A stretch of DNA of 33,816 nucleotides from the IMG/VR virus record IMGVR_UViG_2850761752_000005. The stretch is one strand, 5' to 3'. How positions within the stretch are numbered: position 1 is the first letter of the stretch; each line of letters starts with the position of its first letter. The notes under the pieces are model-generated. The model worked only from the letters and a program-made list of their open reading frames with translations, had not been told where the DNA came from and made no database searches. Positions 4,266-33,441 of this stretch are shown here, in pieces. This DNA comes from a virus. Lineage: Duplodnaviria > Heunggongvirae > Uroviricota > Caudoviricetes. Both the position numbers and the translations under genes were made by a program.

Positions 4266-4747
4266 GACAGCAGCCCTCCCACCGTTTTACTGATATCGCT
4301 TAAGGCAGATGTTGCCGTTCCCTGCAGATTATTCAGTTGCGCACTGAGATCACCGAACATATCGGACAGGGATTCATCCACGCGTTTTAGCGACAGGGTG
4401 AACTCAATCCGGCGCGGCATACCGTCGCGGAAAAACTCCGTTTTAGTCTGATTCAGTCCCTCAATCACATACATGCCGTAAATCGTGCCGCTGCCTTCAA
4501 TCAGGGGCCATGCTTTTCCCTGTTCTGCCATCTGCTCCAGAGCCAGCAACGACAGCCTGCCGCCCGTTACCTCCGGCATAAGAACACCAGAAAGCGTCAG
4601 CATGTCGTTGTCCGGTCCCAGAAACTGCGTTGACGGGCGTCGGTTTACCCGGCTGTTTGCCGCATGTCGCCAGCTGCGTTGATACTGCAGCTCCTGATAC
4701 GGCACGGTGCGCAGCATAAACACGTACAATCCCAGCACCATCATCAT
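4262..4747 (-). CDS. U: P2 gpU-like tail protein
   Basis: 161-aa ORF, similar in size to P2 U (159 aa); ATG overlaps the T stop. Confidence 0.8.
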   Translation of the reverse strand: MMMVLGLYVFMLRTVPYQELQYQRSWRHAANSRVNRRPSTQFLGPDNDMLTLSGVLMPEVTGGRLSLLALEQMAEQGKAWPLIEGSGTIYGMYVIEGLNQTKTEFFRDGMPRRIEFTLSLKRVDESLSDMFGDLSAQLNNLQGTATSALSDISKTVGGLLS

Positions 4748-7700
4748 GCGTCGTATCCCCCCTGATCGCTGTAGTTACTCCTGGCTTTTGCCTTCAGCCT
4801 GCGTTCACGTTCATCAAGCTGGCGGGCCACCTCCCGCGCAATATCCTGCGCACTTTGTCCTGGCTGCGTTTGAATGATGATCTGCATCGGTGCCTCAATC
4901 CGTTGAACGGGCGGCACAGTGGCTGCACGACTCACCATCGCTTCACCGCCTTTCGCGGGAAGTGCCAAAGGGTGCAACGGTGGAAGCTCTGCTGGCGTAG
5001 CAGCAACACCCATCATTCCGGCAACAACGGCAGCCAGTGCAGCTGTATTTCTCCGGCTGGTCACATTTGCCGGGCCGTTAACAATTTCCGGCCCGTTTTC
5101 ACCGACGATGCCAAACTGCCCGCGCGGGATATACCCGCCGCTGTCATACATCCCCGCAAAGCCATATCCCCATGACGGAAAACCACCCGATGGCATCATC
5201 ACTTTACCGTCTGCATTCACCGTCGCAGGTTGCTGACGCGTCACGCTTTCCGGCAGTTTCGCCTTTGCGGCCTCTTTACTGACAATGCCAAGTTTCTCCA
5301 GCAACCAGGAAACGCCGGATTTCAGGGAGTCCAGCGGATGCATGACCATATTCAGCCCTTCCGCCAGAGCCTCCCCGAATCGTCGCCCCATTGCCGCTGC
5401 ACTCTGCAGTTCGGCAGAGGTCGACTTAACGGGCGTCAGCAGATCAGTAAACCAGCCCCACAGCGCCTGTACTTTGTCGCCAATCCACTGGAACACAGGC
5501 TTAAGCGGTTCGAACGCGGCACTGACAGGACCTGCCGCCGCTTTGAATCCTTCCACCACGCCACCGAGAAATGCGGTGATGGGCTGCCAGTATTTCCAGA
5601 CAACCAGCGCCACACCCGCCAGTGCAGTAACCACAAGACCTATCAGACTGAGCAGAGCACCTAACAGACCAGAGACGGCATACAGGGCAACGCGCAGCAT
5701 CGCCAGTGGACCGGATGCGAGCATACGCAGCACCGTGCCTGTGGCAGCCAGTCCGCCGCGTAGTACCGCCAGTGGATTCATAAACATCACAGCAACCGCA
5801 CGTAAACCGGATAATCCAGACCGCAAAAGTGCAACCGGCGCACCTGCTACAGTTTTCAGGACATTTCCCGTCAGTGATGCCGTGCGGCGCAAAGACGACA
5901 ACGGCGCAGTAAGTAAACCTGCAGCGTTGCCCGATGAAGCAAGCCCGCGTCGCAGCAGTGCCAGTGGTGCGCCAGCCAGCCAGGACAACGCGTTGCTGGT
6001 TCGGGTTACTGTTGCCGTAACGGAAGGTAACGTTTTGATACCCAGCACAGAGAATCCCAGACGGATGACTGCCAGCGGCCCCAGCACTGCAGCCAGCGCC
6101 ACCGCTAAGGTGCCGAGGCCCACGGTAACGGCAGCTACCACAGCGGCTACTTTCATCAGAGTGCCCGTCAGTTCCGGGTTAGCTTCCACCCAGCGACGCA
6201 ACGCCCCCGTGACGCTTTTCACCGTGTACAGAATATCCATCAGCGGCTGGCGCAGCGTTTCCCCCAGGCTGCTGAAGGTGTTCTGTGCTCCGGTTTTGAC
6301 CAGCAACCACTGAGCAGAAAGTGAATCCTTGTTGATGTCGGATTCTTTCTGCATGGAACCGAGCGCATCATTGCCCGCAGTCAGTTTTAACTGGCGCTGA
6401 AGTTCCGGCAGGTTGTTTGCCAGTTTCGCTGCGTCATCGCCAAACTCTTTACCAAACAACATGGTCATGGCAGACAGGCGCTTATCCTGTGGCAGCGCAT
6501 TCACCTTCTCCAGCACCCGCTGGATAGTTCCCATCGCATCCTTCGTCATCTGCTTTTCAATCACTTCTGGATTGAGTTTCAGCAGATTCATCCCTTCAAA
6601 GAAACTCTTGCTTTGCATGGTGGCAATGGACAATTCACGCACCATCGCGTTTGCTGCACTGGCTGCAACCTCAGGCGCAGCGCCGAGTGTCAGGAAGGTG
6701 GAACCCAGCGCCGCCGCTTTACGATAATCCAGACGGTCAGCCACACCGCCCAGGCGTTGCATGACATCAATGATGTCCGCCCCTTTCGACATGGCGTTAT
6801 CATCCAGATAGTTCAGCGCATCACCGAGCTGCTCAATATTGCGGGTAGGGATTTTGTAGAGCTGGGCGATTTTCCCCAGACTTTCTGACAGTTCATCCGC
6901 TGGCAGTTCAAAGGCTGTTGCCGCCTTTGCCGCCGTGCTGGCGAAGGCCAGCAGGTCACGTTTCTGGTCTTCCCAGCTGTCGTCAGGGTTTGCGACGTTC
7001 ATGCGCGCACCACCTTCAACCAGTGCGGCGAAGTCCACAGCACCGTTTTCCATCGGCAACTGTTCGCTGGCAGCCTTGATGGCACCCTGCATTTCGTAAA
7101 AACGCGCAGTGCGGTTGCCATTATCGTCACGCAGACCATTGACCTGCTTTGCCACACCTTTCATGGCATCTTCCATGCTGGTATAGCTTTTTACTGCCGC
7201 CATCACTGGTGCGCCCATTGCCAGCCCTGCAGCCGTGGTGGTGGCTCCGGCACCTGCAATACGATCCCTTACCTCAAGACGCCTGGCGTAAGCCCCCGGG
7301 CGGCGTGCATTTTTCGCTGTTGCTCCCCGACACGTCGTAACCTCGCTTCCTGCTCAGAAAGCTGCCTGTTATAACGCATCGTTTCACGGGTAATGCGGGC
7401 CGTCGCACTGGCGCCATCATTAGCTGAAATACCAGCACGATAAAGTTCTGCACGCACAAGCGCCGTCTGCTGCTGCAGCTTTTTCTGGCGTTCTTCTAGG
7501 CGCTGAACAGCCAGCCGTTGACGGCCCAGAGCAACAACCTGACGTTGCGAAGGCGGCCCCATCGCTCCCAGTTCCTGACTGAGCAAATTTGCACGCTGGC
7601 GGGCATAGTTCAGCCTGTCGCCTAATTTCTGATTTTCTGCCTGCAGCTTTCGGAAGCTGTCCAGACTGCTCCCGGCCTGATCAAGCTGCTTTATTGCATC

Positions 7701-7820
7701 GCGGGATTTTTTGACAGCAGCAGCCAGTTCTCTTGAACTGGCCTGCGCGGATCGAAATGGGCGGGTGAGTTTGTCAACCGCATTAAGAATCACCTGCAGA
7801 CGCAGGTTATTGTCACTCAT
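4744..7820 (-). CDS. T: tail tape measure protein (gpT-like), interrupted by an apparent single-base frameshift
   Basis: Two ORFs: 7269..7820 (183 aa, coiled-coil-rich; its ATG overlaps the E' stop) and 4744..7218 (824 aa, Gly/Ala/Leu-rich repeats). Their frames differ by one and both are open across about 7269..7355. One extra base in the C5/G run at 7293..7301 would fuse them into about 1025 aa. Confidence 0.7.
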
Positions 7821-8249
7821 GGCTGGCCCCGCTTCTCTGAATCGCTTTATCCCGCCATTCCAGCACTTCGGTCAGCGGCATAACGTCAGTAACGGATGGC
7901 GGCCAGTGAAAGATGGTGGCGATATCAGCCACCAGATCGTCAACCGTCAGGCTGTCGGTAAACCGGCAAGCACCGACTTCTTCAACAAAAAAGTGACAAC
8001 CTCAACCGACATGGCAGTGAGATCTGCCGGGTCCATCTCTGCAATTTCCTGTGCAGTCAGTGCCGGACTGGAGATGCGGGGGATCACGGTCATCATCGCG
8101 TTCACATCCATATCCATAATGGCCTGCAGGCGTGTGCCGCGCAGCGCACCGGACTGCGGTTTACGCAACACAATTTCGGTAATTTCTGTTTTACCGCGCA
8201 TGATGGGAGTATCCAGTTGAATGGTCTTTTCAGTCTGCTTATCGCTCAT
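7813..8249 (-). CDS. E+E' extended chaperone made by programmed -1 frameshift
   Basis: Minus-strand heptamer T TTT TTG (plus 7986..7992) near the E 3' end; the -1 frame stays open for about 59 codons to a TGA at 7813..7815 that overlaps the T start. Predicted length of about 146 aa is close to P2 E+E' (142 aa). Confidence 0.6.
7947..8249 (-). CDS. E: tail assembly chaperone gpE-like
   Basis: 100-aa ORF between FII and T; ends just after a T TTT TTG slippery heptamer. Confidence 0.75.
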   Translation of the reverse strand: MSDKQTEKTIQLDTPIMRGKTEITEIVLRKPQSGALRGTRLQAIMDMDVNAMMTVIPRISSPALTAQEIAEMDPADLTAMSVEVVTFLLKKSVLAGLPTA

Positions 8250-8303
8250 TTTGTTGTCCTGTAAATTAGGTTCTGGCGCGGCATTCCGCGCCGTTCAGAT
8301 ACA

Positions 8304-8819
8304 TCAGAGGCCGAGGGCGTTGCGGTGCGCTTCCATCAGGTCCACACCGTCCACAATTTCCACCATGTTGATCAGGTCCACTTCATAGAGCACCTCACCA
8401 TTGATGGTCAGCTTCGCGTAGCTGTTGGTACTGGTCACTTTGGTAGTGTTGCTTTCGCCCGTCTTCCACTCGCCGGAATCTACTTCTTTGTGACGTCCAC
8501 GCACCACAAGCTCCACGGCCTGCACTTCCCCGGTATCATCACGCTGAATAGAGCCGGTAAAGCGCAGCTGGATGCCATCCACCGTGGCTTTGCCCATCTG
8601 CTTAAACAGCAGCAGTTCAGTACCACCAATGGAAAATTCTGTATCCAGTGCACTGTCATCCAGTCCCAGATCCACATCCACCGCTCCGGGCATACCGCCG
8701 CCGCGATACTTCTCATATTTGCGGGTGAATTTCGGCAGCGTCAGCGACTCAACGATCCCCTGCCAGTTGTTCCCGTCGTTAAACAGGTTCAGGTGTTTTA
8801 ATTTGCGTGGTAAAGCCAT
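8304..8819 (-). CDS. FII: tail tube protein gpFII-like
   Basis: 171-aa ORF (P2 FII is 172 aa); follows the sheath gene. Confidence 0.85.
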   Translation of the reverse strand: MALPRKLKHLNLFNDGNNWQGIVESLTLPKFTRKYEKYRGGGMPGAVDVDLGLDDSALDTEFSIGGTELLLFKQMGKATVDGIQLRFTGSIQRDDTGEVQAVELVVRGRHKEVDSGEWKTGESNTTKVTSTNSYAKLTINGEVLYEVDLINMVEIVDGVDLMEAHRNALGL

Positions 8820-10143: not shown

Positions 10144-10710
10144 TCAGGGCGATTCATTGCTCTCATTCGCCGGAAATTTTCTATAAATGGTAGAAACGCC
10201 CACATCAAAAATCAGTGCAATACGCTGTCTTGATTCTCCGGCCTCGAGTAAACGTCCAATCTGTGCCCACTGTTCGGTGGTCAACTTAGGACGGCGTCCA
10301 CCTACTCTGCCTTTGGCACGAGCTGCAGCCAGCCCTGCTCTGGTACGTTCAACTATCAGTTCACGTTCCATTTCAGCCAGAGCCCCCATGACGTGAAAAA
10401 AGAAACGGCCCATTGGGGTACTGGTATCAATACTGTCAGTCAGGCTTCGGAAATTCACACCACGCTGGCGCAACTCTTCTATCAGCGTAACAAGATGCCG
10501 CATACTGCGTCCCAGTCTGTCCAGCTTCCAGACAACCAGCGTGTCTCCTGCCGATAGTGTCCTGAGCAGTTTTTTAAGCCCCGGTCTGTCGGGCTTAGTG
10601 CCACTGATTTTATCCTCAAAAATCCGCTCACATCCCGCGCAGTTCAGTGCATTACGTTGCAAATCGGTGTTCTGGTCATTTGTTGACACGCGTACATAGC
10701 CAATAAGCAT
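10144..10710 (-). CDS. serine DNA invertase (Hin/Gin/Pin/Cin family)
   Basis: 188 aa from ATG at 10710; GYVRVSTNDQ catalytic-serine motif at the N-terminus and a C-terminal HTH; the ORF track extends upstream of this start. Confidence 0.85.
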   Translation of the reverse strand: MLIGYVRVSTNDQNTDLQRNALNCAGCERIFEDKISGTKPDRPGLKKLLRTLSAGDTLVVWKLDRLGRSMRHLVTLIEELRQRGVNFRSLTDSIDTSTPMGRFFFHVMGALAEMERELIVERTRAGLAAARAKGRVGGRRPKLTTEQWAQIGRLLEAGESRQRIALIFDVGVSTIYRKFPANESNESP

Positions 10711-10721
10711 GATCAATCCCC

Positions 10722-10747
10722 TGAATAAAAACCGGGGATGATGCCAG
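10722..10747. other. Candidate hix/gix-like inversion crossover site
   Basis: Half-site TGAATAAAAACC resembles the TTATCAAAAACC consensus; lies 12 bp from the invertase start, exactly where the tail-fibre segment reading frame opens (10729). Confidence 0.4.
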
Positions 10748-11127
10748 TTAGCCATTATCTCTGCATTTTCTTAAACGTTGGTTTGGGAGAATTATCTCTG
10801 GCTGGCACTGCATCGGGTGTCATTGGCCTGAATGGGTATGTAACGATTCCGTTAATTATTTCAGGTTCCCGGAGAACACTGATTATTCAGTGGGGGCAGG
10901 CGAGATTTGGTGGGTCTGGTGGTGAAGATGCAGGATATCTTAATGATTTTCCTTTTGCCTTTCCGTCAGCATGTTATGGGATGATAGTTAGTCATGTGGG
11001 GCATACACCTTCAGGCGCAGGAATCCTGTCGGCTTCTGCAATTACATCAAATCAGTTCCGCGGTTTTTCAAGCATAGCGACTGCTGCAAATGCTGTATTA
11101 GGTCGTTATATCGCTATAGGGGTTTAA
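10738..11127 (+). CDS. orphan tail-fibre C-terminal variable segment (Hv'-like), inverted relative to the late operon
   Basis: 129-aa Gly/Ser-rich ORF; frame is open from 10729 at the crossover site; immediately followed by a tail-fibre assembly gene. Confidence 0.5.
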   Translation: MMPVSHYLCIFLNVGLGELSLAGTASGVIGLNGYVTIPLIISGSRRTLIIQWGQARFGGSGGEDAGYLNDFPFAFPSACYGMIVSHVGHTPSGAGILSASAITSNQFRGFSSIATAANAVLGRYIAIGV

Positions 11128-11128
11128 T

Positions 11129-11566
11129 ATGTTTTATAGTCCATCTTTAAACATTTTTGTGAATCCTGCGCTTAAGGATGATTACATTAATGCAAATTCA
11201 TGGCCAGATGATGCTCTGGCTGTCAGTGATGATGTTTATAATGAATTTGCAATCAATACGCCCCCAGATGACAAAATTCGTGTTGCAGGAAAAAATGGAT
11301 TACCCACATGGGCACTAATACCTCCACCATCATATGAAGAACTTATTCAACAGGCAGAATCAGAAAGGCAATTATTGCTTAATCAGGCCAACGAATACAT
11401 GAACAGTAAACAATGGCCCGGTAAAGCCGCTATTGGTCGTCTGAAAGGTGAGGAACTGGCGCAATATAATTTGTGGCTGGATTATCTGGACGCACTGGAA
11501 CTGATTGATACCTCCAGTGCTCCAGATATTGAATGGCCTACGCCTCCGGCAGTTCAGGCCAGATGA
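11129..11566 (+). CDS. tail fibre assembly protein (Tfa/gpG-like)
   Basis: 145-aa ORF ending in the DIEWPTPP motif typical of Tfa proteins. Confidence 0.7.
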   Translation: MFYSPSLNIFVNPALKDDYINANSWPDDALAVSDDVYNEFAINTPPDDKIRVAGKNGLPTWALIPPPSYEELIQQAESERQLLLNQANEYMNSKQWPGKAAIGRLKGEELAQYNLWLDYLDALELIDTSSAPDIEWPTPPAVQAR

Positions 11567-11652
11567 CATCCGGCGCGGTGCTGGTATCTGTTGCCGCCAC
11601 CGCGTCAATGTAATCCAACACGGCGTTAAGTCGGGTGGGTAATGACTCCAAC

Positions 11653-12156
11653 TTACTGATAGTGTTTTATGTTCAGATAATGCCCGATGACCTTGTCATG
11701 CAGCTCCACCGATTTTGAGAACGACAGTGACTTCCGTCCCAGCCTTGCCAGATGTTGTCTCAGATTCAGATTATGTCGCTCAATGCGCTGAGTGTAACGC
11801 TTGCTGATAACGTGCAGCTTTCCCTTCAGGCGTGATTCATACAGCGGCCAGCCATCCGTCATCCATACCACGACCTCAAAGGCCGACAGCAGGCTCAGAA
11901 GACGCTCCAGTGTGGCCAGAGTGCGTTCACCGAAGACGTGCGCCACAACCGTCCTCCGTATCCTGTCATACGCGTAAAACAGCCAGCGCTGACGTGATTT
12001 AGCACCGACGTAGCCCCACTGTTCGTCCATTTCAGCGCAGACAATCACATCACTGCCCGGTTGTATGCGCGAGGTTACCGACTGCGGCCTGAGTTTTTTA
12101 AGTGACGTAAAACCGTGTTGAGGCCAACGCCCATAATGCGTGCACTGGCGCGACAT
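11653..12156 (-). CDS. insB: IS1 InsB
   Basis: 167-aa ORF matching recalled InsB; overlaps the insA 3' end. Confidence 0.95.
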
Positions 12157-12350
12157 CCGACGCCATTCATGGCCATATCAATGATTTTCTGGTGCGTACC
12201 GGGCTGAGAGGCGGTGTAAGTGAACTGTAGTTGCCATGTTTTACGGCAATGAGAGCAGAGATAGCGCTGATGTCCGGCAGTGCTTTTGCCGTTACGCACC
12301 ACGCCTTCAGTAGCGGAGCAGGAAGGACATCTGATGGAAATGGAAGCCAC
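12075..12350 (-). CDS. insA: IS1 InsA
   Basis: 91-aa ORF matching recalled InsA. Confidence 0.95.
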
Positions 12351-12428
12351 GCAAGCACCTTAAAATCACCATCATACACTAAATCAGTAAGTTGGCAGCA
12401 TTACCACTCAATTGAAAACAAATAAAAA

Positions 12429-14194: not shown

Positions 14195-14195
14195 T

Positions 14196-18375: not shown

Positions 18376-20142
18376 ATGAACACCACACTGACACCCGCAG
18401 ATCTCGATCCCCGTCGGCAGGCCATGCTGCTGTACTTTCAGGGATACCGCGTAGCCCGCATTGCTGAAATGCTGGGCGAGAAAGTTGCAACCGTTCACAG
18501 CTGGAAAAAACGCGACAAGTGGGGTGACTATGGGCCTCTGGATCAGATGCAGCTCACCACCGCCGCACGCTACTGCCAGCTCATCATGAAGGAGCACAAA
18601 GAAGGGAAAGATTTCAAAGAGATTGACCTGCTGGCGCGCCAGTCTGAGCGCCACGCGCGGATCGGCAAGTTTAACAATGGCGGCAACGAAGCCGACTTAA
18701 ACCCTAACGTCGCCAACCGCAACAAAGGCCCACGCCGTCAGCCTGAAAAGAATGTTTTCACCGATGACCAGATTGAGAAGCTGGAAAAAATTTTCCATTC
18801 CTCCATGTTCAACTACCAGCGCCACTGGTGGGAAGCCGGAAAAACCAACCGCATCCGCAACCTGCTGAAGTCACGCCAGATCGGCGCGACCTTCTATTTT
18901 GCCCGTGAAGCCCTGATTGACGCCCTGCTTACCGGACGTAACCAGATTTTCCTTTCTGCCAGTAAGGCACAGGCCCACGTCTTCAAACAGTACATCATCG
19001 ACTTTGCCAAAGAAGTGGAGGTGGAGCTGAAAGGCGATCCGATGGTGCTTCCCAACGGGGCCACACTGTATTTCCTCGGCACCAATGCCCGCACTGCCCA
19101 GAGTTATCACGGTAACCTGTATCTGGATGAATATTTCTGGATACCGAAATTTCAGGAGCTACGCAAAGTGGCTTCCGGTATGGCTATTCACAAGAAATGG
19201 CGGCAGACCTATTTTTCCACACCATCCAGTCTGACCCACAGTGCTTATCCGTTCTGGTCCGGTGCGCTGTTCAACCGTGGGCGCAACAAAGCTGACAAGG
19301 TGGACATCGACCTGTCCCACAGCAATCTGGCCCCCGGCCGGCTGTGCGCAGACGGGCAATACCGCCAGATAGTCACCGTGGAAGATGCGGTGCGCGGCGC
19401 CTGTAACCTGTTCGACCTTGACCAGTTGCGCATGGAGTACAGCCCTGACGAATACCAGAACCTGCTGATGTGCGAGTTCGTGGACGATCTCGCGTCCGTG
19501 TTCCCGCTCAGCGAATTGCAGGCGTGCATGGTGGACAGCTGGGAAGTCTGGACCGACTTTCATGCACTGGCCCTGCGCCCGTTTGGCTGGCGCGAAGTGT
19601 GGATCGGTTATGACCCGGCAAAAGGTACGCAGAACGGCGACAGCGCCGGATGCGTGGTGGTGGCACCGCCAGCCGTGCCAGGCGGTAAGTTCCGCATTCT
19701 TGAGCGTCACCAGTGGCGCGGAATGGACTTTCGCGCCCAGGCTGACGCCATCAAAAAACTGACTGAACAGTACAACGTGACCTATATCGGCATCGACTCA
19801 ACCGGCGTTGGTCACGGGGTTTACGAGAACGTGAAAGCGTTTTTTCCTGCCGTCCGGGAGTTTGTCTACAACCCCAACGTTAAAAACGCCCTGGTACTCA
19901 AGGCCTACGACATTATCAGCCACCGCCGTCTTGAGTTTGACGCCGGGCACACCGACATTGCGCAGTCATTCATGGCAATCCGTCGCGCCACCACCGCCAG
20001 CGGCAACCGCCCGACCTATGAAGCCAGCCGCAGCGAAGAAGCCAGCCATGCCGATCTGGCCTGGGCAACAATGCACGCACTGTTTAACGAACCGCTGCAG
20101 GGCGAGTCCGCCAATACCAGCAATATTGTGGAGATTTTTTGA
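18376..20142 (+). CDS. P: terminase large (ATPase) subunit gpP-like
   Basis: 588-aa ORF (P2 P is 590 aa); stop overlaps the Q start (ATGA). Confidence 0.9.
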   Translation: MNTTLTPADLDPRRQAMLLYFQGYRVARIAEMLGEKVATVHSWKKRDKWGDYGPLDQMQLTTAARYCQLIMKEHKEGKDFKEIDLLARQSERHARIGKFNNGGNEADLNPNVANRNKGPRRQPEKNVFTDDQIEKLEKIFHSSMFNYQRHWWEAGKTNRIRNLLKSRQIGATFYFAREALIDALLTGRNQIFLSASKAQAHVFKQYIIDFAKEVEVELKGDPMVLPNGATLYFLGTNARTAQSYHGNLYLDEYFWIPKFQELRKVASGMAIHKKWRQTYFSTPSSLTHSAYPFWSGALFNRGRNKADKVDIDLSHSNLAPGRLCADGQYRQIVTVEDAVRGACNLFDLDQLRMEYSPDEYQNLLMCEFVDDLASVFPLSELQACMVDSWEVWTDFHALALRPFGWREVWIGYDPAKGTQNGDSAGCVVVAPPAVPGGKFRILERHQWRGMDFRAQADAIKKLTEQYNVTYIGIDSTGVGHGVYENVKAFFPAVREFVYNPNVKNALVLKAYDIISHRRLEFDAGHTDIAQSFMAIRRATTASGNRPTYEASRSEEASHADLAWATMHALFNEPLQGESANTSNIVEIF

Positions 20143-21171
20143 TGGGAAAGAGTAAGAAGAACCGCGCTGCGGCGACGAAACAGACCCAGCATAAAAACCA
20201 GACTTCAGCCGAAGCATTCAGCTTCGGCGATCCCGTTCCGGTTCTGGACCGCCGTGAACTACTGGACTATGTGGAATGCGTACAGACAGATCGCTGGTAT
20301 GAGCCGCCAGTGAGTTTTGACGGACTGGCGCGCACCTTCCGCGCCGCCGTGCATCACAGTTCACCAATTGCGGTGAAATGCAACATTCTGATCAGTACCT
20401 ACATCCCTCACCCGCTGCTCAGCCAGCAGGCTTTTTCACGTTTTGTGCAGGATTATCTGGTATTTGGTAACGCTTACCTGGAGAAACGCACAAACCGGTT
20501 CGGAGAGGTCATCGCTCTTGAGCCTGCTCTGGCAAAATACACCCGACGCGGATTAGACCTGGATACCTACTGGTTTGTGCAATACGGCATGACCACGCAG
20601 CCGTATCAGTTCACGAAAGGAAGCATCTTTCATCTGATGGAACCGGACATCAACCAAGAGATCTACGGCCTGCCAGGTTACCTTTCTGCCATTCCGTCAG
20701 CCCTGCTCAACGAGTCCGCCACGCTGTTCCGCCGATAGTATTACATTAACGGCAGTCATGCAGGCTTCATCATGTACATGACCGATGCCGCGCAAAACCA
20801 GGAGGATGTGAACAACCTCCGCAATGCGATGAAAAGCGCCAAAGGACCAGGTAACTTCCGCAATCTGTTTATGTACTCGCCTAACGGCAAAAAGGACGGG
20901 CTTCAGATCATCCCGTTGTCAGAAGTCGCGGCGAAGGATGAGTTTCTGAACATCAAGAACGTGAGCCGGGATGACATGATGGCGGCGCATCGTGTGCCAC
21001 CGCAAATGATGGGGATTATGCCTAATAATGTCGGGGGTTTGGGGATGTGGAGAAGGCGAGCCTGGAGTTTGTACGTAACGAGTTAATACCGTTACAAAAA
21101 AGAATGATGGAAATAAATAAATTGGTAAGTGAGAACATTGTTAAATTTGATAGTTATAAACTAGCTACTTA
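20139..21171 (+). pseudogene. Q: portal protein gpQ-like, disrupted by an in-frame amber codon and a frameshift
   Basis: In-frame TAG at 20736..20738 with the same frame continuing to 21086; the final 40 or so codons (...DVEKASLEFVRNELIPLQ...) are in another frame, rejoined by adding one G to the G5 run at 21033..21037. Total span is about 344 codons, as in P2 Q. Confidence 0.75.
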
Positions 21172-21277
21172 ACGTAATCACTAAATGAGGTTCTTTAACA
21201 CAGCTAAAAAATTTATTAATAGCCAGCAGTTTTATGAATTTCTTCAGCGTGCAGATACACGCTGAAGATGCAAAAAA

Positions 21278-22159
21278 TCATATGAGACGACCGTCTGGAC
21301 TTCTGTTACCTAAATGTAATTCACAGAGTATCCACCTAATCACATCAGGTCGAATTAACCCAGCTACAAAAACCGAATTCCAATTATTTTTACCTTTATG
21401 TTTTTCATCCAACAGCAACAACTCGCGAGTCAACAACTCATATACATCGCTATAAGTAGAAAGACTCTTATTCAGTCCTCTAATAACAAGCTCAGGATAT
21501 AAGTAAAACGACTCCCATTGTTCAGACAAATACCCCTTAATATTATTCTTGATAACAACATTATCAAGATGATACTTAACATTGTTATATTCTGGTGACA
21601 TTGGGTCAATTATGATTTTTACATCAATTGTAGGTGTTCGCCCTAATTTAGAAAAATTAGCACATATTAATCTTTGTTTTAATATATTATCAAAATATGG
21701 ATGCAGCATCCGATGGCCTGCAGAATTAGCTATAGTAGTACTTTTGAAAGTATTACATTTGCAAGCAGGAACCAAATTCTTAGTGAATAAAGAAAATTCT
21801 GGATAGTTTTCCTTGGGTAAAACATGATCCAAAGTCCCGCTATGCATTGAACCACACATTGGACATAGAGAGTTAGAATTAGCTGCTCTTATATCATCAA
21901 TTATAGATAAACACTTTGCGGGATTGTTATAATAATATCTCAAAGCTTCAGCAATATTGTTACTCAATACGCCACAAGAATTGACATTAAGATACCCTTT
22001 ATTCTTTATGTACGATCTATATGCATTAAGTATAAATGTATCCTGTCCATTCAGAACAGAATGATGTTTTAATCTCTTATTTGCAGATAGTTTTTTAAAT
22101 GCAGAATAATCTTTAAAAACAGGTCTTTTTAATTTATTCATTTCAATTGCCCATTTCAT
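21278..22159 (-). CDS. HNH endonuclease-domain protein (cargo gene 2)
   Basis: 293-aa ORF in an AT-rich region; motif CPMCG...GTLDHVLP...NLVPACKCN (CxxC, DH, N, CxC); ATG overlaps the ATPase stop by 17 nt. Confidence 0.7.
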   Translation of the reverse strand: MKWAIEMNKLKRPVFKDYSAFKKLSANKRLKHHSVLNGQDTFILNAYRSYIKNKGYLNVNSCGVLSNNIAEALRYYYNNPAKCLSIIDDIRAANSNSLCPMCGSMHSGTLDHVLPKENYPEFSLFTKNLVPACKCNTFKSTTIANSAGHRMLHPYFDNILKQRLICANFSKLGRTPTIDVKIIIDPMSPEYNNVKYHLDNVVIKNNIKGYLSEQWESFYLYPELVIRGLNKSLSTYSDVYELLTRELLLLDEKHKGKNNWNSVFVAGLIRPDVIRWILCELHLGNRSPDGRLI

Positions 22160-23791
22160 TTCTCAACGCAGTTAATACATTAAGTGATAAGTCCTCGCTA
22201 TATTTAGATTCAACATCATCCCAAGACATATTCTTTGCAATTATATTGTTTTTTACTTTATTTAAAATTTGAGTTGGTTCACTCTCACCGAAAACAAAAT
22301 ATGAGATATTTCCTATATTCGCCCCAAAAGTACTCAATCTCGGTTTTTCGCTAACAATTACCCCATCATCTCGTCTTCTGAGTATTGTCACTTGCTCCTT
22401 AAAAACCTCCCGAACAAGATAAACCGAATGCGTTGCTATGATAGCTGAAGAGCCTGTCTTTCTAATAAATTATCAAGCAATGCCATAAATTTATTAATAA
22501 ATGAAGGATGGAGATGTGTTTCTGGCTCATCTATTAATAGAAGAGTCCCATTCTCAATATACAAACAGACTTGTACACAAAACTTAATAAACGATATTTC
22601 CCCACTACTCAAAGGGTAACATTTATTTTCAATAAGCCTCAAAGGCTCGCCAGAGAGAATAATTTCAGAATATAATGATAGTCTAGATTCTTCGCCTCGA
22701 GAATTAAGCTCATTTAATTTAACAAATGGTGAATTTTCACCGCCACATTTGATTACTAAATCGTTGTTACTATTTAGAACACTCAGTGCATCAACAAATA
22801 TATTCCACCTTTGATTATAGCCGATAGCGTCGTTACTCCTCGCTAGTTGCACTATTAAATCATTCAAGTTTAATTTGGATTTTGATTCACGATTTAAAGT
22901 CAATCTTTTGTACCATATCAATGATTTTATTCTTTTATCGGTTGGAAATGAACACTTACTTTCATTTGTTGGAGAAAAAGCAATGAGCCTACTAATTTGA
23001 ATTCGTTCTTCAATGCTCACACCGTTAGAATCAACTACAGCCACCAAATTATCCTTTCCTTTAATCGCAGCCAATGCGATTTCTCTAAGCGTTTGGCTTT
23101 TTCCTACACCATTCTCGCCTATAATTATGGAAATTCTTTTTGGTAAATCATGCTCGTGATCAAAATTAAAAACATAAGATACATCTTCTTCATTAACTTT
23201 ATTCGAATAGCTAATCTTGATGTGCTGTGATAAATTACCCAACTCCTCATATTGAATACCGGAAAGAACTGTTCCTGCATTTTTGAAAGTAAAATACGAC
23301 TCAGACTCTCTAATGAAAGATTTATTAAAGATATCAGAAGAGATTGCTTTTTTCCTCAAATTCTCTGCACTAGCGTCACTTTTCTTAGAAACAACATCAT
23401 TAATGAAATTTAATATATATTTGGATTCATTCACCCCAAAAAATCTTACTAGTCTTCGATAATTATTCATATCCTGAAGCATGACAAAATAATCATTAAA
23501 CCCCTCATCCTTTAAATTAGATTCTTCCTTTTTCTTCACTCGCCTTATCAGTTCTGCTTTTCCATTTCGTTCCTCCTCTGAATTCAAAAAACCAATATAA
23601 CCATTCAGTGAAATTATATCCTTACACTCTTTTTTATTAAAAATAGATATTTCGACTCTACTCAAATATCCAAAATCATTCCAATCGCTTCTTGATGGGA
23701 CTATTTTTATATAATTACCAGAATCAGATATCTGTTGATTATTTGTAATTAAAAAATATAAACTATAATTTTTATTTTTCTTGACTAACAT
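22143..23791 (-). CDS. OLD/ABC-type ATPase with an unrecognised N-terminal domain (cargo gene 1), apparent single-base frameshift
   Basis: Walker A GENGVGKS near residue 225, Walker B LLLIDEPETHLHP and H-loop IIATHS. Read as two ORFs (22436..23791 and 22143..22391); a 1-nt gain within about 22430..22470 gives one protein of about 549 aa. Sample block 22441..22500 has 16 G+C of 60. Confidence 0.7.
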
Positions 23792-27720: not shown

Positions 27721-27728
27721 TGAAGTGG

Positions 27729-28897
<1,169 letters not shown>

Positions 28898-28969
28898 TGG
28901 AGCACCTGTGTTGTTCTGAGGTGAGCATATCACCTCTGTTCAGGTGGCCAAATTCAGTGTGCCACTTCA

Positions 28970-29146: not shown

Positions 29147-29178
29147 GGTCAATGCCTCTGATGTATTTCAGAATCGAA

Positions 29179-29400
29179 CTAATTAAGGTTTAGATTGCAT
29201 TCTGAAAGCGCATCAACGGTCATTGCTGCTATGTTGATCATCACTTTTTCGCGTTTTTTATCTTTGCGCAGACGGTGACGGATAAGGCGTCCATCAGCCA
29301 ACATGTCATTGATGGTATCGATGGATAGCCCTGTCAGCTCGCTATAGCGTTCAATAGTCACATGAGGCGTGGTAAGAGTGATTGAAATGTTAGGTCTCAT
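29179..29400 (-). CDS. apl: 186 Apl-like excisionase / repressor
   Basis: 73-aa HTH ORF divergent from cI, upstream of cII. Confidence 0.65.
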
Positions 29401-29472
29401 GATGCAACATTCCTCGTTTAATGATGATTAATCAGGACGAATACGGATCGTTTGTATTTTGTGAACACCATA

Positions 29473-29501
29473 AACATATGATTGCACAGTGAAATCGTCA
29501 A
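29473..29501 (-). promoter_or_regulatory. Candidate lytic promoter pR driving apl-cII
   Basis: Minus strand TTGACG, 17-bp spacer, TATGTT in the cI/apl intergenic region. Pattern match only. Confidence 0.35.
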
Positions 29502-29525
29502 GATAAAAGTTCACTTGGAGTGACC

Positions 29526-30095
29526 ATGAATTTGGAGAAAGGCGGACGAGGCGCCATAGAGCGCATGGTAGAAGCTTATGGATTCAAGACTCGACAGGCG
29601 TTGTGCGATCATTTAGGAATCTCTAAAAGTACACTCGCCACACGCTACATGCGTGACTCATTCCCAGCAGAATGGGTAATCCAGTGCGCCCTTGAAACGG
29701 GCACCTCGCTTAATTGGCTCACAACCGGACATGGTTCAAAGCAAACTTCAGGTAATACAAATACTATGGAAGTTGCTAAATATGTATTATCTGATGGTGC
29801 CTTGCGTGAAGACGGTTTTTATATTTTTGATAAGGGATTTCTACCCTCTACGTTTAAAAAACCTTTTGTCATCACAGATAACAATTCTGAATTTATTTGT
29901 GATAAAGAATTTGATGACATACGTGATGGTAAATGGGTAATAAGTATTGATGGCGAAGTAACGATCCGTGACATTACTCGTTTACCCGGTGGAAGAATCT
30001 TCGTCGAGGGTGGAAACAGAGCCTTCGAATGTAAGATAGAAGACATTGAAATAATTGGTAAAATTATAAGTTTAACAGTTAAATATGTTAGATAA
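29526..30095 (+). CDS. cI: 186 CI-like immunity repressor
   Basis: 190 aa from ATG at 29526 after GGAG (the ORF track starts at a GTG at 29520); N-terminal HTH. Confidence 0.7.
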   Translation: MNLEKGGRGAIERMVEAYGFKTRQALCDHLGISKSTLATRYMRDSFPAEWVIQCALETGTSLNWLTTGHGSKQTSGNTNTMEVAKYVLSDGALREDGFYIFDKGFLPSTFKKPFVITDNNSEFICDKEFDDIRDGKWVISIDGEVTIRDITRLPGGRIFVEGGNRAFECKIEDIEIIGKIISLTVKYVR

Positions 30096-30110
30096 TACCG
30101 GGAGGAAACT

Positions 30111-30302
30111 ATGCTTGGTAAAGTATTTTTTGTGGTTTTATCATGCTCTTTGTTATTAAGCCCACTAACTACCTATGCTAAAAATTATCCTTGTTCTGGG
30201 AAAAAGGGAGGTGTCTCTCACTGTACCTCCGATGGAAAATTTGTTTGCAATGATGGAACTATTAGTAAATCCAAAAAAATCTGTACTAAAAACTCACGAT
30301 AA
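30111..30302 (+). CDS. small secreted Cys-rich protein of unknown function (candidate moron)
   Basis: 63-aa ORF with strong GGGAGG site; N-terminal signal peptide and four Cys in the mature part; 16 nt after the cI stop. Confidence 0.5.
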
Positions 30303-30311
30303 CTTTTGCTT
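30303..30311. repeat. 9-bp target-site duplication CTTTTGCTT of IS1 copy 2 (left)
   Basis: Identical 9-mer at 32393..32401. Confidence 0.85.
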
Positions 30312-30366
30312 GGTAATGCTGCCAACTTACTGATTTAGTGTATGATGGTGATTTTAAGGTGCTTGC

Positions 30367-30642
30367 GTGGCTTCCATTTCCATCAGATGTCCTTCCTGCT
30401 CCGCTACTGAAGGCGTGGTGCGTAACGGCAAAAGCACTGCCGGACATCAGCGCTATCTCTGCTCTCATTGCCGTAAAACATGGCAACTACAGTTCACTTA
30501 CACCGCCTCTCAGCCCGGTACGCACCAGAAAATCATTGATATGGCCATGAATGGCGTCGGATGTCGCGCCAGTGCACGCATTATGGGCGTTGGCCTCAAC
30601 ACGGTTTTACGTCACTTAAAAAACTCAGGCCGCAGTCGGTAA
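30367..30642 (+). CDS. insA: IS1 InsA
   Basis: Identical 91-aa protein to copy 1. Confidence 0.95.
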
Positions 30643-31064
30643 CCTCGCGCATACAACCGGGCAGTGATGTGATTGTCTGCGCTGAAATGGACGAACAGTG
30701 GGGCTACGTCGGTGCTAAATCACGTCAGCGCTGGCTGTTTTACGCGTATGACAGGATACGGAGGACGGTTGTGGCGCACGTCTTCGGTGAACGCACTCTG
30801 GCCACACTGGAGCGTCTTCTGAGCCTGCTGTCGGCCTTTGAGGTCGTGGTATGGATGACGGATGGCTGGCCGCTGTATGAATCACGCCTGAAGGGAAAGC
30901 TGCACGTTATCAGCAAGCGTTACACTCAGCGCATTGAGCGACATAATCTGAATCTGAGACAACATCTGGCAAGGCTGGGACGGAAGTCACTGTCGTTCTC
31001 AAAATCGGTGGAGCTGCATGACAAGGTCATCGGGCATTATCTGAACATAAAACACTATCAGTAA
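30561..31064 (+). CDS. insB: IS1 InsB
   Basis: Identical 167-aa protein to copy 1. Confidence 0.95.
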
Positions 31065-31130
31065 GTTGGAGTCATTTGAACCGCCCCGGGAATCCTGGAG
31101 ACTAAACTCCCTGAGAAAGAGGTAAACAGG

Positions 31131-31457
31131 ATGACTAAAAATACTCGTTTTTCCCCCGAAGTCCGTCAGAGGGCGATTCGTATGGTTCTGGAAAGTCAGG
31201 GCGAATATGACTCACAGTGGGCGGCAATTTGTTCCATTGCCCCAAAGATTGGCTGTACACCGGAGACTCTGCGTGTCTGGGTACGCCAGCATGAGCGGGA
31301 TACCGGAGGCGGTGATGGCGGGCTCACCACCGCTGAACGTCAGCGTCTGAAAGAGCTGGAACGTGAAAATCGTGAACTGCGCCGCAGTAACGATATCCTT
31401 CGCCAGGCTTCCGCTTATTTTGCGAAGGCGGAGTTCGACCGCCTCTGGAAAAAGTGA
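31131..31457 (+). CDS. IS629 OrfA
   Basis: 108-aa [18 protein letters not shown]..., matching recalled IS629/IS1203 OrfA. Confidence 0.9.
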
Positions 31458-32344
31458 TGCCACTGCTGGATAAGCTGCGTAAGCTGTACGGGGTCGGACC
31501 GGTATGCAGTGAACTACATATTGCCCCGTCAACGTATTACCACTGTCAGCAACAGCGACATCATCCTGATAAACGCAGTGCCCGTGCGCAGCGCGATGAC
31601 TGGCTGAAGAAAGAGATACTGCGCGTATACGATGGGAATCATCAGGTATACGGTGTGCGTAAAGTCTGGCGTCAGTTGTTACGGGAAGGTATCAGAGTGG
31701 CCAGATGCACTGTGGCACGTCTCATGGCGGTTATGGGACTTGCCGGTGTTCTCCGGGGTAAAAAGGTCCGTACGACCATCAGCCGGAAAGCCGTTGCCGC
31801 AGGCGACCGCGTAAACCGTCAGTTCGTGGCAGAACGACCTGACCAGCTGTGGGTGGCTGATTTTACTTACGTCAGCACATGGCAGGGCTTCGTCTATGTG
31901 GCGTTCATTATTGATGTGTTTGCCGGATACATCGTGGGGTGGCGGGTCTCATCGTCCATGGAAACGACATTCGTGCTGGATGCTCTGGAGCAGGCGTTAT
32001 GGGCCCGTCGACCGTCCGGCACGGTCCATCACAGTGATAAAGGTTCTCAGTATGTATCGCTGGCCTACACACAGCGGCTTAAGGAAGCCGGATTACTGGC
32101 ATCAACAGGAAGTACAGGCGACTCGTATGACAACGCGATGGCGGAGAGCATCAATGGTCTTTACAAAGCGGAGGTAATACACCGTAAGAGCTGGAAAAAC
32201 CGTGCAGAAGTGGAACTGGCCACACTCACGTGGGTGGACTGGTATAATAATCGACGATTGCTGGAAAGGCTGGGCCACATCCCTCCGGCAGAAGCAGAAA
32301 AAGCTTATTATGCTTCCATCGGAAACGATGATCTGGCAGCCTGA
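31454..32344 (+). CDS. IS629 OrfB transposase
   Basis: 296-aa ORF with IS3-family DDE region. Confidence 0.9.
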
Positions 32345-32392
32345 GTTCACAGATAAAACACTCTCCAGGAAACCCGGGGCGGTTCAATTACC

Positions 32393-32401
32393 CTTTTGCT
32401 T
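32393..32401. repeat. 9-bp target-site duplication CTTTTGCTT of IS1 copy 2 (right)
   Basis: Identical to 30303..30311. Confidence 0.85.
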
Positions 32402-32580
32402 TTATATCTGCGTCTAAAATAAAAATGAGCCGCAGGTTAACCGCAAAAGTTACATGCTCACATAGCAAAAAGAATAGCCAACTTCATTATGGCTTCAGTG
32501 AGATGTATGGTCGTAGGATTTCATACATTGACACTGGTTATACATACAGTAAAAATACTCTCTACTGGAGGGCATTTTTT

Positions 32581-33441
32581 ATGGCAGTACGAAAACTCAC
32601 CACTGGGAAATGGCTTTGCGAATGTTACCCCGCCGGACGAAGTGGGCGTCGTGTGCGTAAACAATTCGCCACCAAAGGCGAAGCACTGGCTTTTGAGCGC
32701 CACACGATGGAAGAAACCGAAGCAAAGCCCTGGCTGGGTGAATCAGTGGATCGTCGAACACTGAAAGACGTGGTTGAGCTATGGTTCAAACTACATGGTA
32801 AATCTCTGACAGCTGGGCAGCATGTCTATGACAAATTGCTGTTGATGGTTGACGCTCTGGGCAATCCTCTTGCAACCGATCTCACCTCTAAAATGTTTGC
32901 CCACTATCGAGATAAACGCCTGACAGGCGGGATCTACTTCAGCGAGAAATGGAAGAAAGGAGCAAGCCCGGTCACCATTAACCTGGAGCAAAGCTATCTA
33001 AGTAGTGTTTTTAGCGAACTATCCCGTCTGGGCGAATGGTCGTATCCGAACCCACTGGAGAACATGCGAAAATTCACCATCGCAGAAAAAGAGATGGCAT
33101 GGCTTACCCATGAGCAGATTGTTGAATTGCTGGCTGATTGCAAACGTCAGGACCCAATTCTGGCACTGGTAGTTAAGATATGCTTAAGCACAGGCGCACG
33201 CTAGCGTGAAGCCGTAAATCTTACCCGCTCACAGGTGACCAAATACCGAATTACCTTTGTCAGAACGAAGGGAAGAAAAACAGAAGCATCCCTATCAGTA
33301 AAGAGCTTTACGAAGAGATCATGGCGCTTGATGGGTTCAATTTCTTCACAGACTGCTATTTTCAATTTTTATCCGTGATGGAAAAAACGTCTATCGTGCT
33401 CCCTCGCGGTCAACTCACACACGTTCTGCGCCATACGTTTG
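32581..33441 (+). pseudogene. int: P2/186-type tyrosine integrase with amber codon, frameshift and 3' truncation by IS911
   Basis: MAVRKLTTGKW... resembles recalled P2 Int; TAG at 33202..33204 where ...STGARW... is expected; frame change near the A-run at 33271..33280; the HVLRHTF region runs straight into the IS911 end at 33442, so the catalytic Tyr region is lost. Confidence 0.7.

What the first reader, a model, noticed from the sequence alone, without database searches (positions are those of the whole stretch)
4744..33441. Cluster of single-base frameshifts, several at homopolymers: reductive decay or assembly error
At least four genes need one extra base to be restored: T (C5/G run at 7293..7301), Q (G5 at 21033..21037), the cargo ATPase (about 22438) and int (A-run at 33271..33280). 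All shifts go the same direction, which is typical of homopolymer undercalling in some sequencing chemistries. The two amber codons and three IS truncations are not explained by such errors, so real pseudogenisation (as in Shigella-like lineages rich in IS1, IS911 and IS629) is also plausible. The distinction decides whether the cargo system is functional.
Basis: inference. Interest (0 to 1): 0.5.

Follow-up and report, generated by a model that had tools for sequence, protein, structure and literature searches.

The report
Homopolymer assembly errors in dead prophage
The four "frameshifted" genes in this Shigella boydii P2-like prophage are almost certainly one-base homopolymer undercalls of an unpolished long-read assembly, whereas the two amber codons and the IS insertions that really kill the prophage are genuine and shared by hundreds of Shigella genomes.

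Summary
Against the closest intact relative, the window lacks one base in gpT (C5, 7293-7297), portal Q (G5, 21033-21037), the cargo ATPase (T3, 22459-22461) and int (G3, 33270-33272). There is a fifth deficit in an intergenic T-run (21230-21233). All five are deletions in homopolymers.

The window is S. boydii ATCC 8700, CP026731.1, which I infer belongs to a PacBio-only series reported to carry "numerous indels in the homopolymers".

- Over 29,344 non-IS bases the window has no private substitution and no private insertion, only these deletions.
- CP068090.1 matches the window genome over 20.2 kb and UAUO01000003.1 over 15.7 kb, each with 0 mismatches. Both carry the longer run at Q, the intergenic site, the ATPase and int.
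- Sb227 (0 mismatches) and every other unselected comparator have C6 in T.
- Exact repaired products occur on 633 contigs (T), 825 (Q fragment) and 694 (ATPase). The frameshifted versions occur on about 15, 4 and 1.
- 13 of the 15 frameshifted-T contigs are complete long-read genomes (Fisher p = 2e-19).

The Q and int ambers and the IS1/IS911/IS3-family lesions are real and ancestral. The prophage is therefore truly defective, but its Septu-like ATPase+HNH cargo is most likely intact. This is an ordinary artefact of low interest.

The parts
7293..7297 (-). C5 run (G5 on the coding strand) in tape-measure gene T. One base short of the C6 found in relatives. It splits T into ORFs 7269-7820 (183 aa) and 4744-7218 (824 aa).
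   Evidence: Sb227, CP162080, CP162059, CP049285, AKMW01, ABSHEA01 and L001 all have C6. The intact exact 1025-aa T is in 1006 blocks; the frameshifted 183-aa product is on 15 contigs, 13 of them >1 Mb.
21033..21037 (+). G5 run in portal gene Q, downstream of the amber. One base short of G6.
   Evidence: The SNP-identical CP068090.1 and UAUO01000003.1, the draft AAVUNZ01 and Sb227 all have G6. The in-frame 133-aa product is on 825 contigs, the shifted 104-aa product on 2-4.
21230..21233 (.). Intergenic T4 run between Q and the HNH gene. One base short of T5.
   Evidence: All 12 of 12 comparators carry the extra T, as do all further assemblies.
22459..22461 (-). T3 run (A3 on the coding strand) in the cargo AAA ATPase. 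One base short of T4. It splits the 549-aa protein into 22436-23791 (451 aa) and 22143-22391 (82 aa).
   Evidence: The 451-aa product exists on exactly one contig, this assembly. The intact 549-aa product is on 694 contigs. All comparators have T4.
33270..33272 (+). G3 run in int, downstream of the amber. One base short of G4.
   Evidence: All 15 of 15 comparators have G4, including those that share the IS911 insertion at 33441/33442. CP068090.1 and UAUO01 (0 mismatches) also have G4.
20736..20738 (+). Genuine amber codon in portal Q (AAG->TAG). It ends a 198-aa product (20142-20738).
   Evidence: The exact 198-aa product is on >=1000 contigs in 1377 blocks, mostly 5-20 kb draft contigs.
33202..33204 (+). 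Genuine amber codon in int (TGG->TAG). It ends a 207-aa product (32581-33204).
   Evidence: The exact product is on 178 contigs in 217 blocks across NCBI, ENA and Logan.
11639..12405 (-). IS1 copy that replaces about 5.5 kb (tail fibre H/G, baseplate I, J, W, V and a DUF5677 gene) of the intact prophage.
   Evidence: Block structure against L001. The same junction is present in Sb227 and many other Shigella assemblies.
27721..28969 (-). IS911 copy that replaces about 1.8 kb of early region. It truncates Dam and the CII-like gene.
   Evidence: annotated as 'IS3-like element IS911 family transposase', 99.8% identity. Shared with Sb227 and others.
30312..32392 (+). IS1 (30312-31076) next to an IS3-family element with 108-aa and 296-aa ORFs, IS629-like (31077-32392). 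Both are inserted between the cI-side ORF and int.
   Evidence: The same arrangement is in CP068090.1, UAUO01, AKNB01 and PSSU01.
33442..33816 (+). Start of a second IS911 copy inserted in int. It runs off the window.
   Evidence: The copy continues to the window-equivalent position 34689 in L033.
21278..22159 (-). Intact HNH-like partner gene of the cargo ATPase (PADLOC PDC-M01B).
   Evidence: The exact 293-aa product is on 995 contigs.

Best explanation
The window is a defective P2-like prophage between ybjL and rcdA in Shigella boydii ATCC 8700, assembly CP026731.1. I infer that this is a long-read (PacBio) assembly never polished with short reads. The five single-base deficits (T, Q, the intergenic site at 21230, the ATPase and int) are consensus undercalls of homopolymers of true length 4-6. 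They are not mutations. In the real genome T, the ATPase and the downstream parts of Q and int are in frame.

The prophage is nonetheless genuinely dead. An IS1 deleted the tail-fibre and baseplate genes. Q and int carry ancestral amber codons. IS911, IS1 and an IS3-family element disrupt the early region and int.

Shown here: the indels are private to this assembly, absent from SNP-identical assemblies, all deletions, and associated with long-read complete genomes. Inferred: that the cause is PacBio consensus error. I have no reads, and the attribution of CP026731.1 to the Kim et al. 2018 series rests on its accession block and on the other ATCC type strains of that block.
For: 1. The window is 100% identical to CP026731.1, which is S. 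boydii ATCC 8700 (PMC9430107). Neighbouring accessions CP026774-CP026878 are the PacBio genomes of Kim et al. 2018 (PMC7819885; PMC10132075). [quoted passage not shown]

2. Over 29,344 non-IS positions the window has 0 private substitutions and 0 private insertions. Its differences from the comparators are 1-bp deletions: 21230 (12/12 comparators longer), 22459 (12/12), 33270 (15/15), 7293 (5/5 unselected comparators) and 21033 (8/13).

3. CP068090.1 matches the window genome over 20,180 bp, including four IS copies and host flank, with 0 mismatches and exactly 5 gaps. Four of the gaps are the Q, intergenic, ATPase and int sites. The fifth is a C5/C6 site just outside the window. UAUO01000003.1 gives the same result over 15.7 kb. 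The draft contig AAVUNZ01 has 0 mismatches and 3 gaps.

4. Sb227 (CP000036) has 0 mismatches over w2431-22869 and carries the longer run at T, Q, 21230 and the ATPase.

5. Exact-product counts, repaired against shifted: T 633 contigs (1006 blocks) against about 15; Q fragment 825 against 2-4; ATPase 694 against 1.

6. Thirteen of the 15 frameshifted-T contigs are >1 Mb complete genomes (every one of these displayed is from the CP0267xx-CP0268xx series). Only 19 of 1006 intact-T blocks are >1 Mb. Fisher p = 1.8e-19.

7. Sister assemblies of the series show their own sporadic -1 events in C/G runs, for example 6 in 9.5 kb in CP026825. Their rate is about 1 per 7 kb, the same as in the window. 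Assemblies from other projects show almost none.

8. HGAP3/Quiver assemblies are documented to retain indels 'nearly all ... within G or C homopolymer regions' (PMC4832174).
Against: - No reads were available, so no site is proven at read level.
- I could not confirm that CP068090.1 or UAUO01000003.1 are the same strain, nor how they were sequenced. They are only SNP-identical over 15-20 kb.
- These two assemblies do not cover the T site.
- The T C5 state recurs in 13 assemblies of several prophage lineages and in one Logan contig (ERR14938997). The Q G5 state also occurs in S. flexneri 1485-80 (AMGB01 and Logan SRR061722) and in Logan SRR29762670. So these two runs could also vary for real in some strains.
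- T, Q and int lie in a prophage that is already dead, where real frameshifts would be neutral.
- Two of the five runs (T3/T4 and G3/G4) are shorter than the classic PacBio problem runs.
Confidence: 0.92

Rival explanations
1. The deletions are real, strain-private slippage mutations that accumulated neutrally in a dead prophage of the long-passaged type strain. This would be Shigella-style reductive decay.
For: The prophage is truly defective (IS1 deletion, ancestral Q and int ambers), so T, Q and int are not under selection. Homopolymers are natural slippage sites. G5 in Q is also seen in assemblies outside the PacBio series.
Against: - There are no private substitutions beside five private deletions in 29 kb. 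With indels at 10-25% of spontaneous events (my recollection of E. coli mutation-accumulation data), the probability of five out of five is at most 1e-3, before the direction bias is counted.
- SNP-identical assemblies lack all four sites they cover.
- One deficit hits the ATPase of a defence-type cargo that is intact on 694 contigs.
- The same rate of sporadic -1 events appears in sister assemblies of the series but not in other projects.
- The assemblies are described in print as carrying numerous homopolymer indels.
Confidence: 0.05
2. The T (C6) and Q (G6) tracts are genuinely hypervariable, phase-variation-like runs. Cultures would then be mixed, and different assemblies would capture different states.
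For: Both states occur across several lineages. T C5 is in 13 complete genomes plus one Logan contig. Q G5 is in CP026823, CP026840, strain 1485-80 and SRR29762670.
Against: - Runs of 6 are short for high-frequency phase variation.
- The short state is almost confined to long-read complete genomes (13 of 15 for T), against about 990 draft blocks with the intact state.
- The 1485-80 and ERR14938997 contigs carry further private homopolymer indels of their own, which suggests error-prone data there too.
- Neither site has any plausible regulatory role. Q is already stopped by an amber.
Confidence: 0.03
3. The shifts are programmed ribosomal frameshift sites, so the genes are expressed as written.
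For: P2-type phages do use a programmed -1 frameshift in the tail chaperone genes E/E' (established knowledge). That locus lies next to T, at 7813-8249.
Against: Relatives encode T, the ATPase, Q and int as single continuous ORFs (1025, 549, 343 and 350 aa) with one more base at exactly these runs. The window would need +1 shifts at four unrelated sites. One deficit is intergenic.
Confidence: 0

Closest known systems
Residual homopolymer indels in PacBio-only (HGAP/Quiver) bacterial assemblies, specifically the CDC set of 59 historical Shigella genomes (Kim et al. 2018, Genome Announc 6:e00282-18)
   Same: One-base deficits in homopolymers with no accompanying SNPs. Sister assemblies of the series show the same rate and the same direction of error. 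Yassine et al. 2022 (PMC8795385) excluded these genomes from cgMLST for exactly this reason.
   Different: Two of the five runs are A/T and two have a true length of only 4, whereas G/C runs of 5 or more are the usual offenders. I infer that CP026731.1 belongs to that publication from its accession block and strain type. I did not read it in the paper, which is not held in the library.
IS-driven and nonsense-driven prophage and gene decay in Shigella (reductive evolution)
   Same: The IS1, IS911 and IS3-family insertions and deletions and the two amber codons in this prophage are genuine. They are inherited by hundreds to more than 1000 Shigella assemblies.
   Different: The single-base frameshifts, which are the subject of the finding, are not part of that decay. 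They are not inherited by any close relative.
Bacteriophage P2 and P2-like prophages (Peduoviridae) with a cargo hotspot next to the portal gene Q
   Same: The gene order is that of P2: ogr-D-U-T-E/E'-FII-FI ... S-R-lysis-X-L-M-N-O / P-Q, then cargo, then A-Dam ... cI-int. A defence-type cargo sits beside Q: an AAA_21/AAA_15 ATPase plus an HNH-like protein, best PADLOC match PDC-M01 A/B, PtuA-like (Septu-like).
   Different: The prophage is defective. It lacks H, G, I, J, W and V, and it has a stop in Q and a stop plus an IS in int. The cargo is a candidate system only, and no function was tested.

Membership tests
Assembly artefact: homopolymer undercall in a long-read consensus | Every event lies inside a homopolymer | tested here: met
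   The runs are C5, G5, T4, T3 and G3 where relatives have C6, G6, T5, T4 and G4. Only about 6% of non-IS bases lie in runs of 4 or more.
Assembly artefact: homopolymer undercall in a long-read consensus | Absent from independent assemblies of the same or a SNP-identical strain | tested here: met
   CP068090.1 (20.2 kb) and UAUO01000003.1 (15.7 kb) have 0 mismatches and the longer run at Q, 21230, the ATPase and int. Sb227 has 0 mismatches and the longer run at T. That these are the same strain is not proven.
Assembly artefact: homopolymer undercall in a long-read consensus | One-directional bias and no accompanying substitutions | tested here: met
   Five deletions, 0 insertions and 0 private substitutions in 29,344 bp.
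Assembly artefact: homopolymer undercall in a long-read consensus | Association with the sequencing platform or project | tested here: met
   The frameshifted T product is on >1 Mb long-read genomes in 13 of 15 cases, against 19 of 1006 blocks for intact T; Fisher p = 1.8e-19. Sister assemblies carry sporadic -1 events and other projects do not.
Assembly artefact: homopolymer undercall in a long-read consensus | Read pile-ups contradict the consensus | not testable with these tools
   No raw reads are accessible.
Genuine frameshift pseudogene (Shigella reductive evolution) | The lesion is inherited by clade relatives or reproduced in independent sequencing | tested here: not met
   The 451-aa ATPase fragment is on 1 contig only. 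The 21230 and 33270 states are found in no other assembly. The T and Q short states are absent from the nearest relatives.
Genuine nonsense and IS pseudogenisation (Shigella reductive evolution) | The lesion is shared by many independent assemblies from different platforms | tested here: met
   The Q amber product is on >=1000 contigs and the int amber product on 178 contigs. The IS1 and IS911 junctions are shared with Sb227 and many others.
Programmed ribosomal frameshift | Two overlapping frames conserved in relatives at the same site | tested here: not met
   Relatives have single continuous ORFs with one more base at these runs.
P2-like prophage | P2 gene order and hallmark proteins (ogr, gpD, gpU, gpT, E/E', FII, FI, capsid N, scaffold O, terminase P/M, portal Q, gpA, cI, int) | tested here: met
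   The RefSeq annotation of the 99.8%-identical intact prophage and the Pfam families of the called genes.
Septu-like / PADLOC PDC-M01 two-gene defence candidate | An AAA_15/AAA_21 ATPase adjacent to an HNH-type nuclease partner | tested here: met
   PDC-M01A scores E = 3e-55 and PtuA E = 1e-31 for the repaired ATPase. PDC-M01B scores E = 1e-33 for the partner. Pfam finds AAA_21 and AAA_15. No Pfam HNH hit for the partner; 'HNH endonuclease' is RefSeq's name. Defence activity was not tested.

The most novel reading that the evidence does not exclude
The C6 run in gpT and the G6 run in Q may be genuine recurrent slippage hotspots. Their short alleles would then really exist in some Shigella strains, possibly including this one, so at least one of the frameshifts would be biological rather than an error.
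Probability: 0.07. Interest if true: 0.12.

Novelty: not a real feature. Interest (0 to 1): 0.08.

Why it matters
The value is mainly practical. CP026731.1 is the genome of the S. boydii type strain and is used as a reference. In the roughly 41 kb examined it carries about one false one-base deletion per 7 kb. That extrapolates to several hundred false frameshifts genome-wide, which would inflate pseudogene counts in any study of Shigella reductive evolution. For this locus the result means two things. The Septu-like ATPase+HNH cargo should be treated as intact. The prophage's real defects are the IS1 deletion, the two ambers and the IS insertions, not the frameshifts.

Tried and rejected
- The Kim et al. 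2018 announcement (DOI and PMC5897796) is not held. Platform and series membership therefore rest on citing papers.
- The supplement look-up for CP026731 in PMC8767346 found no files held.
- A literature search for GCA_900457095, UAUO01 or NCTC 12985, meant to identify that assembly's strain, gave nothing usable.
- The look-up of the tail chaperone E+E' was far too broad (22,427 blocks). It only showed that T is 1025 aa everywhere else.
- Look-ups with ybjL and gpS were meant to retrieve the T region of CP068090.1. They did not display that record, which was probably collapsed among 'similar places not shown'. T therefore has no direct test against that assembly.
- L032 (CP182558.1) was dropped as a comparator because it is noisy (96.9% identity with many indels).
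- I first took 2514A, 3278G, 6012T and 7497T for window-private SNPs. They turned out to be shared with Sb227 and others.
- The apparent ybjJ truncation (375 against 402 aa) is a gene-calling difference. The DNA is identical to CP068090.1.
- Programmed frameshifting was considered and rejected.


Full report
**What the window is.** The window holds host genes grxA, ybjM and ybjL (1-2620), followed by a P2-like prophage from ogr (2856) to a truncated int. The closest intact relative in the E. coli collection is the prophage of UPEC-245U (NZ_CP049845.1), at 99.8% identity. Block alignment gives these relations:
- w1-11638 matches the relative.
- w11639-12405 is an IS1 that replaces 5.5 kb (tail fibre and baseplate genes H/G, I, J, W, V and a DUF5677 gene).
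- w12406-27720 matches.
- w27721-28969 is IS911 and replaces 1.8 kb of early region.
- w28970-30311 matches.
- w30312-32392 is an IS1 plus an IS3-family element with 108-aa and 296-aa ORFs (IS629-like by ORF size).
- w32393-33441 matches int.
- A second IS911 copy begins at 33442.

**Check of the observation.** The alignment contains six 1-bp gaps, and every one is a deficit in the window:
- w7293, C6->C5, in gpT.
- w21033, G6->G5, in portal Q.
- w21206-21213, A7G->A6T, intergenic.
- w21230, T5->T4, intergenic.
- w22459, T4->T3, in the AAA ATPase.
- w33270, G4->G3, in int.

Gene-by-gene translation shows that only T, Q, the ATPase and int are broken. All other phage genes are full length. Q also carries AAG->TAG at 20736-20738, and int carries TGG->TAG at 33202-33204. 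The ATPase base is missing at 22459-22461; 22436-22438 is the resulting stop codon. The int base is missing from the G-run 33270-33272, not from the A-run. The 21206-21213 difference is shared with Sb227, so it is an ordinary inherited polymorphism. That leaves five window-specific deficits.

**Source of the window.** Exact-product look-ups show that the window is 100% identical to CP026731.1 (GCA_002946735.1, 4,414,429 bp). PMC9430107 names this record as S. boydii ATCC 8700. The neighbouring accessions CP026774-CP026878, which include the other ATCC Shigella type strains, are attributed to the PacBio genomes of Kim et al. 2018 (PMC7819885; PMC10132075). Yassine et al. [quoted passage not shown] That CP026731.1 belongs to this set is my inference from its accession block and strain type. 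The original paper is not held.

**Are the deficits inherited or private?** I collected more than 60 related loci through exact-protein look-ups and compared them base by base.
- Over 29,344 non-IS positions, each covered by at least 3 other assemblies, the window has no private substitution and no private insertion.
- At 21230, 12 of 12 comparators carry the extra base. At 22459 it is 12 of 12. At 33270 it is 15 of 15, including assemblies that share the very IS911 insertion at 33441/33442.
- At 7293, all five comparators that were not selected through the frameshifted product have C6.
- At 21033, 8 of 13 comparators have G6.

**The nearest thing to re-sequencing the same strain.** CP068090.1 (4,412,414 bp) matches the window genome over 20,180 bp (w18970 to about 5.3 kb beyond the window). 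That stretch includes two IS911 copies, IS1, the IS3-family element and host flank. The match has 0 mismatches and exactly five gaps. Four of the gaps are the Q, 21230, ATPase and int sites. The fifth is a C5/C6 site in the second IS911 copy, just outside the window.

UAUO01000003.1 gives the same result over 15.7 kb. The 15-kb draft contig AAVUNZ010000098 has 0 mismatches and the three gaps it covers. All other strains differ from the window by 4-24 SNPs over the same stretch, so the zero-SNP matches are meaningful. Sb227 (CP000036) has 0 mismatches over w2431-22869 and carries the longer run at T, Q, 21230 and the ATPase, plus one private A8 of its own at w2646-2652.

**Population counts.** Exact products were counted in a collection of 15 billion proteins.

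| Product | Repaired / in-frame form | Frameshifted form |
|---|---|---|
| gpT | 1025 aa on 633 contigs (1006 blocks) | 183 aa on about 15 contigs |
| Q fragment | 133 aa on 825 contigs | 104 aa on 2-4 contigs |
| ATPase | 549 aa on 694 contigs | 451 aa on 1 contig (this assembly) |

By contrast, the amber-terminated Q product (198 aa) is on at least 1000 contigs, and the amber-terminated int product (207 aa) is on 178.

**Platform association.** Of the 15 contigs with the frameshifted T, 13 are >1 Mb complete genomes (every one of these displayed is from the CP0267xx-CP0268xx series). Of the 1006 blocks with intact T, only 19 are >1 Mb and the rest are draft-size contigs. Fisher's exact test gives p = 1.8e-19.

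Sister assemblies of the series carry their own sporadic one-base deletions, all in C/G runs of 3-6. CP026825 has six in 9.5 kb, CP026842 has three, and CP026840 and CP026866 have one each. Assemblies from other projects have almost none. The rate in the series is about 1 per 7 kb, which equals the window's rate (5 in 29 kb). [quoted passage not shown]

**Interpretation.** The five deficits behave as consensus errors of one assembly, not as mutations. They show no accompanying SNPs. They all go in one direction. They sit only in homopolymers. They are absent from SNP-identical assemblies. They match the error profile of the sequencing series. If they were real, five of five private events would be indels. 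With indels at 10-25% of spontaneous events (my recollection of E. coli mutation-accumulation work, not checked here), the probability is at most 1e-3 before the direction bias is counted.

The ambers and the IS lesions are real and old. The prophage is therefore truly defective: it has no tail fibre or baseplate, no portal and no integrase. T and the cargo, however, are most likely intact. The cargo is an AAA_21/AAA_15 ATPase whose best PADLOC match is PDC-M01A (E = 3e-55); it is also PtuA-like. Its HNH-like partner matches PDC-M01B (E = 1e-33). Together they form a Septu-like candidate defence pair in the P2 hotspot next to Q. The spurious shift would have removed the last 105 residues of the ATPase.

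**Remaining uncertainty.**
- No reads were available.
- I could not verify the strain identity or the chemistry of CP068090.1 and UAUO01.
- T is not covered by those two records.
- The short T and Q alleles recur outside this assembly. T C5 is in Logan ERR14938997. Q G5 is in S. flexneri 1485-80, Logan SRR061722 and SRR29762670. Two of those contigs have extra private homopolymer indels, which suggests error-prone data, but I could not determine the platforms.

**Verdict.** The finding is real as an observation but is an assembly artefact as biology. It is ordinary and of low interest. Its main use is as a warning about using this reference genome for pseudogene counts.

Noticed in passing
L033:6039 (window-equivalent 34619-34623, about 0.8 kb right of the window): This is a sixth one-base deficit of the same assembly: C5 against C6 (or C5A) near the end of the second IS911 copy. 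It makes the IS911 orfB run on into the int remnant, giving a 284-aa call. CP068090.1 and UAUO01 have the extra base.
   Followed up: partly
window 21278-23791: The cargo next to portal Q is an AAA_21/AAA_15 ATPase plus an HNH-like protein. The best PADLOC matches are the candidate system PDC-M01 A/B, and the ATPase is PtuA-like (Septu-like). Both proteins are intact on about 700-1000 Shigella/E. coli contigs.
   Followed up: partly
window-equivalent 5821-5823, in L017, L019, L020 and L021 (CP026823, CP026805, CP026842, CP026825): These four assemblies belong to a different prophage lineage, with IS66 in gpA and a 'Collar' tail-fibre remnant. They share a +1 C in T that splits it into 572 + 270 aa. 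It is shared by one lineage and is an insertion, so it may be a genuine inherited frameshift, unlike the sporadic -1 events.
   Followed up: no
window-equivalent 3693, 4757, 5373, 8078, 8528, 9193, 9281, 10383 and 13904, in L013, L018, L020 and L021: Sister PacBio assemblies carry their own sporadic single C/G deletions that break gpD, gpU, T, the tube, the sheath, the invertase and lysA. Two sites (4757 and 9193) recur in unrelated assemblies, which points to context-specific error hotspots.
   Followed up: partly
window 21033-21037, compared with L024, L025 and L026: The G5 state of Q is also present in S. flexneri 1485-80 (AMGB01000027 and Logan SRR061722) and in Logan SRR29762670. The 1485-80 contigs each have one further private homopolymer deletion (w22249 and w18251). 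I do not know the platforms.
   Followed up: partly
window 2646-2652: Sb227 (CP000036) alone has one extra A/T in this 7-base run between ybjL and ogr. It is either a private real change or an error in that older assembly.
   Followed up: no
window 10144-11566: A serine recombinase (invertase, 188 aa) sits beside oppositely oriented tail-fibre C-terminal and chaperone cassettes (gp53-like 128 aa, Tfa 145 aa). This is a tail-fibre inversion module, here cut off by the IS1 at 11639.
   Followed up: no
L035/L060 (CP026811.1) and L034/L058 (UAUO01000003.1), right of window-equivalent 34689: Beyond the second IS911 copy these assemblies continue into different DNA. CP026811 continues into Dam-gpA, as if the segment between the two IS911 copies were inverted. 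UAUO01 continues into a ParM/plasmid-stability/portal region. This is either IS911-mediated rearrangement or misassembly.
   Followed up: no
L065, L069 and L070 (empty sites): Some genomes with the same YbjL protein have ybjL directly followed by rcdA, with no prophage. They define the integration site between ybjL and rcdA.
   Followed up: no
window 21206-21213: The A6T state here, against A7G in the UPEC relative, looks like another one-base deficit. It is shared with Sb227 and eight other assemblies, so it is a true polymorphism. Not every gap against a distant reference is an error.
   Followed up: yes
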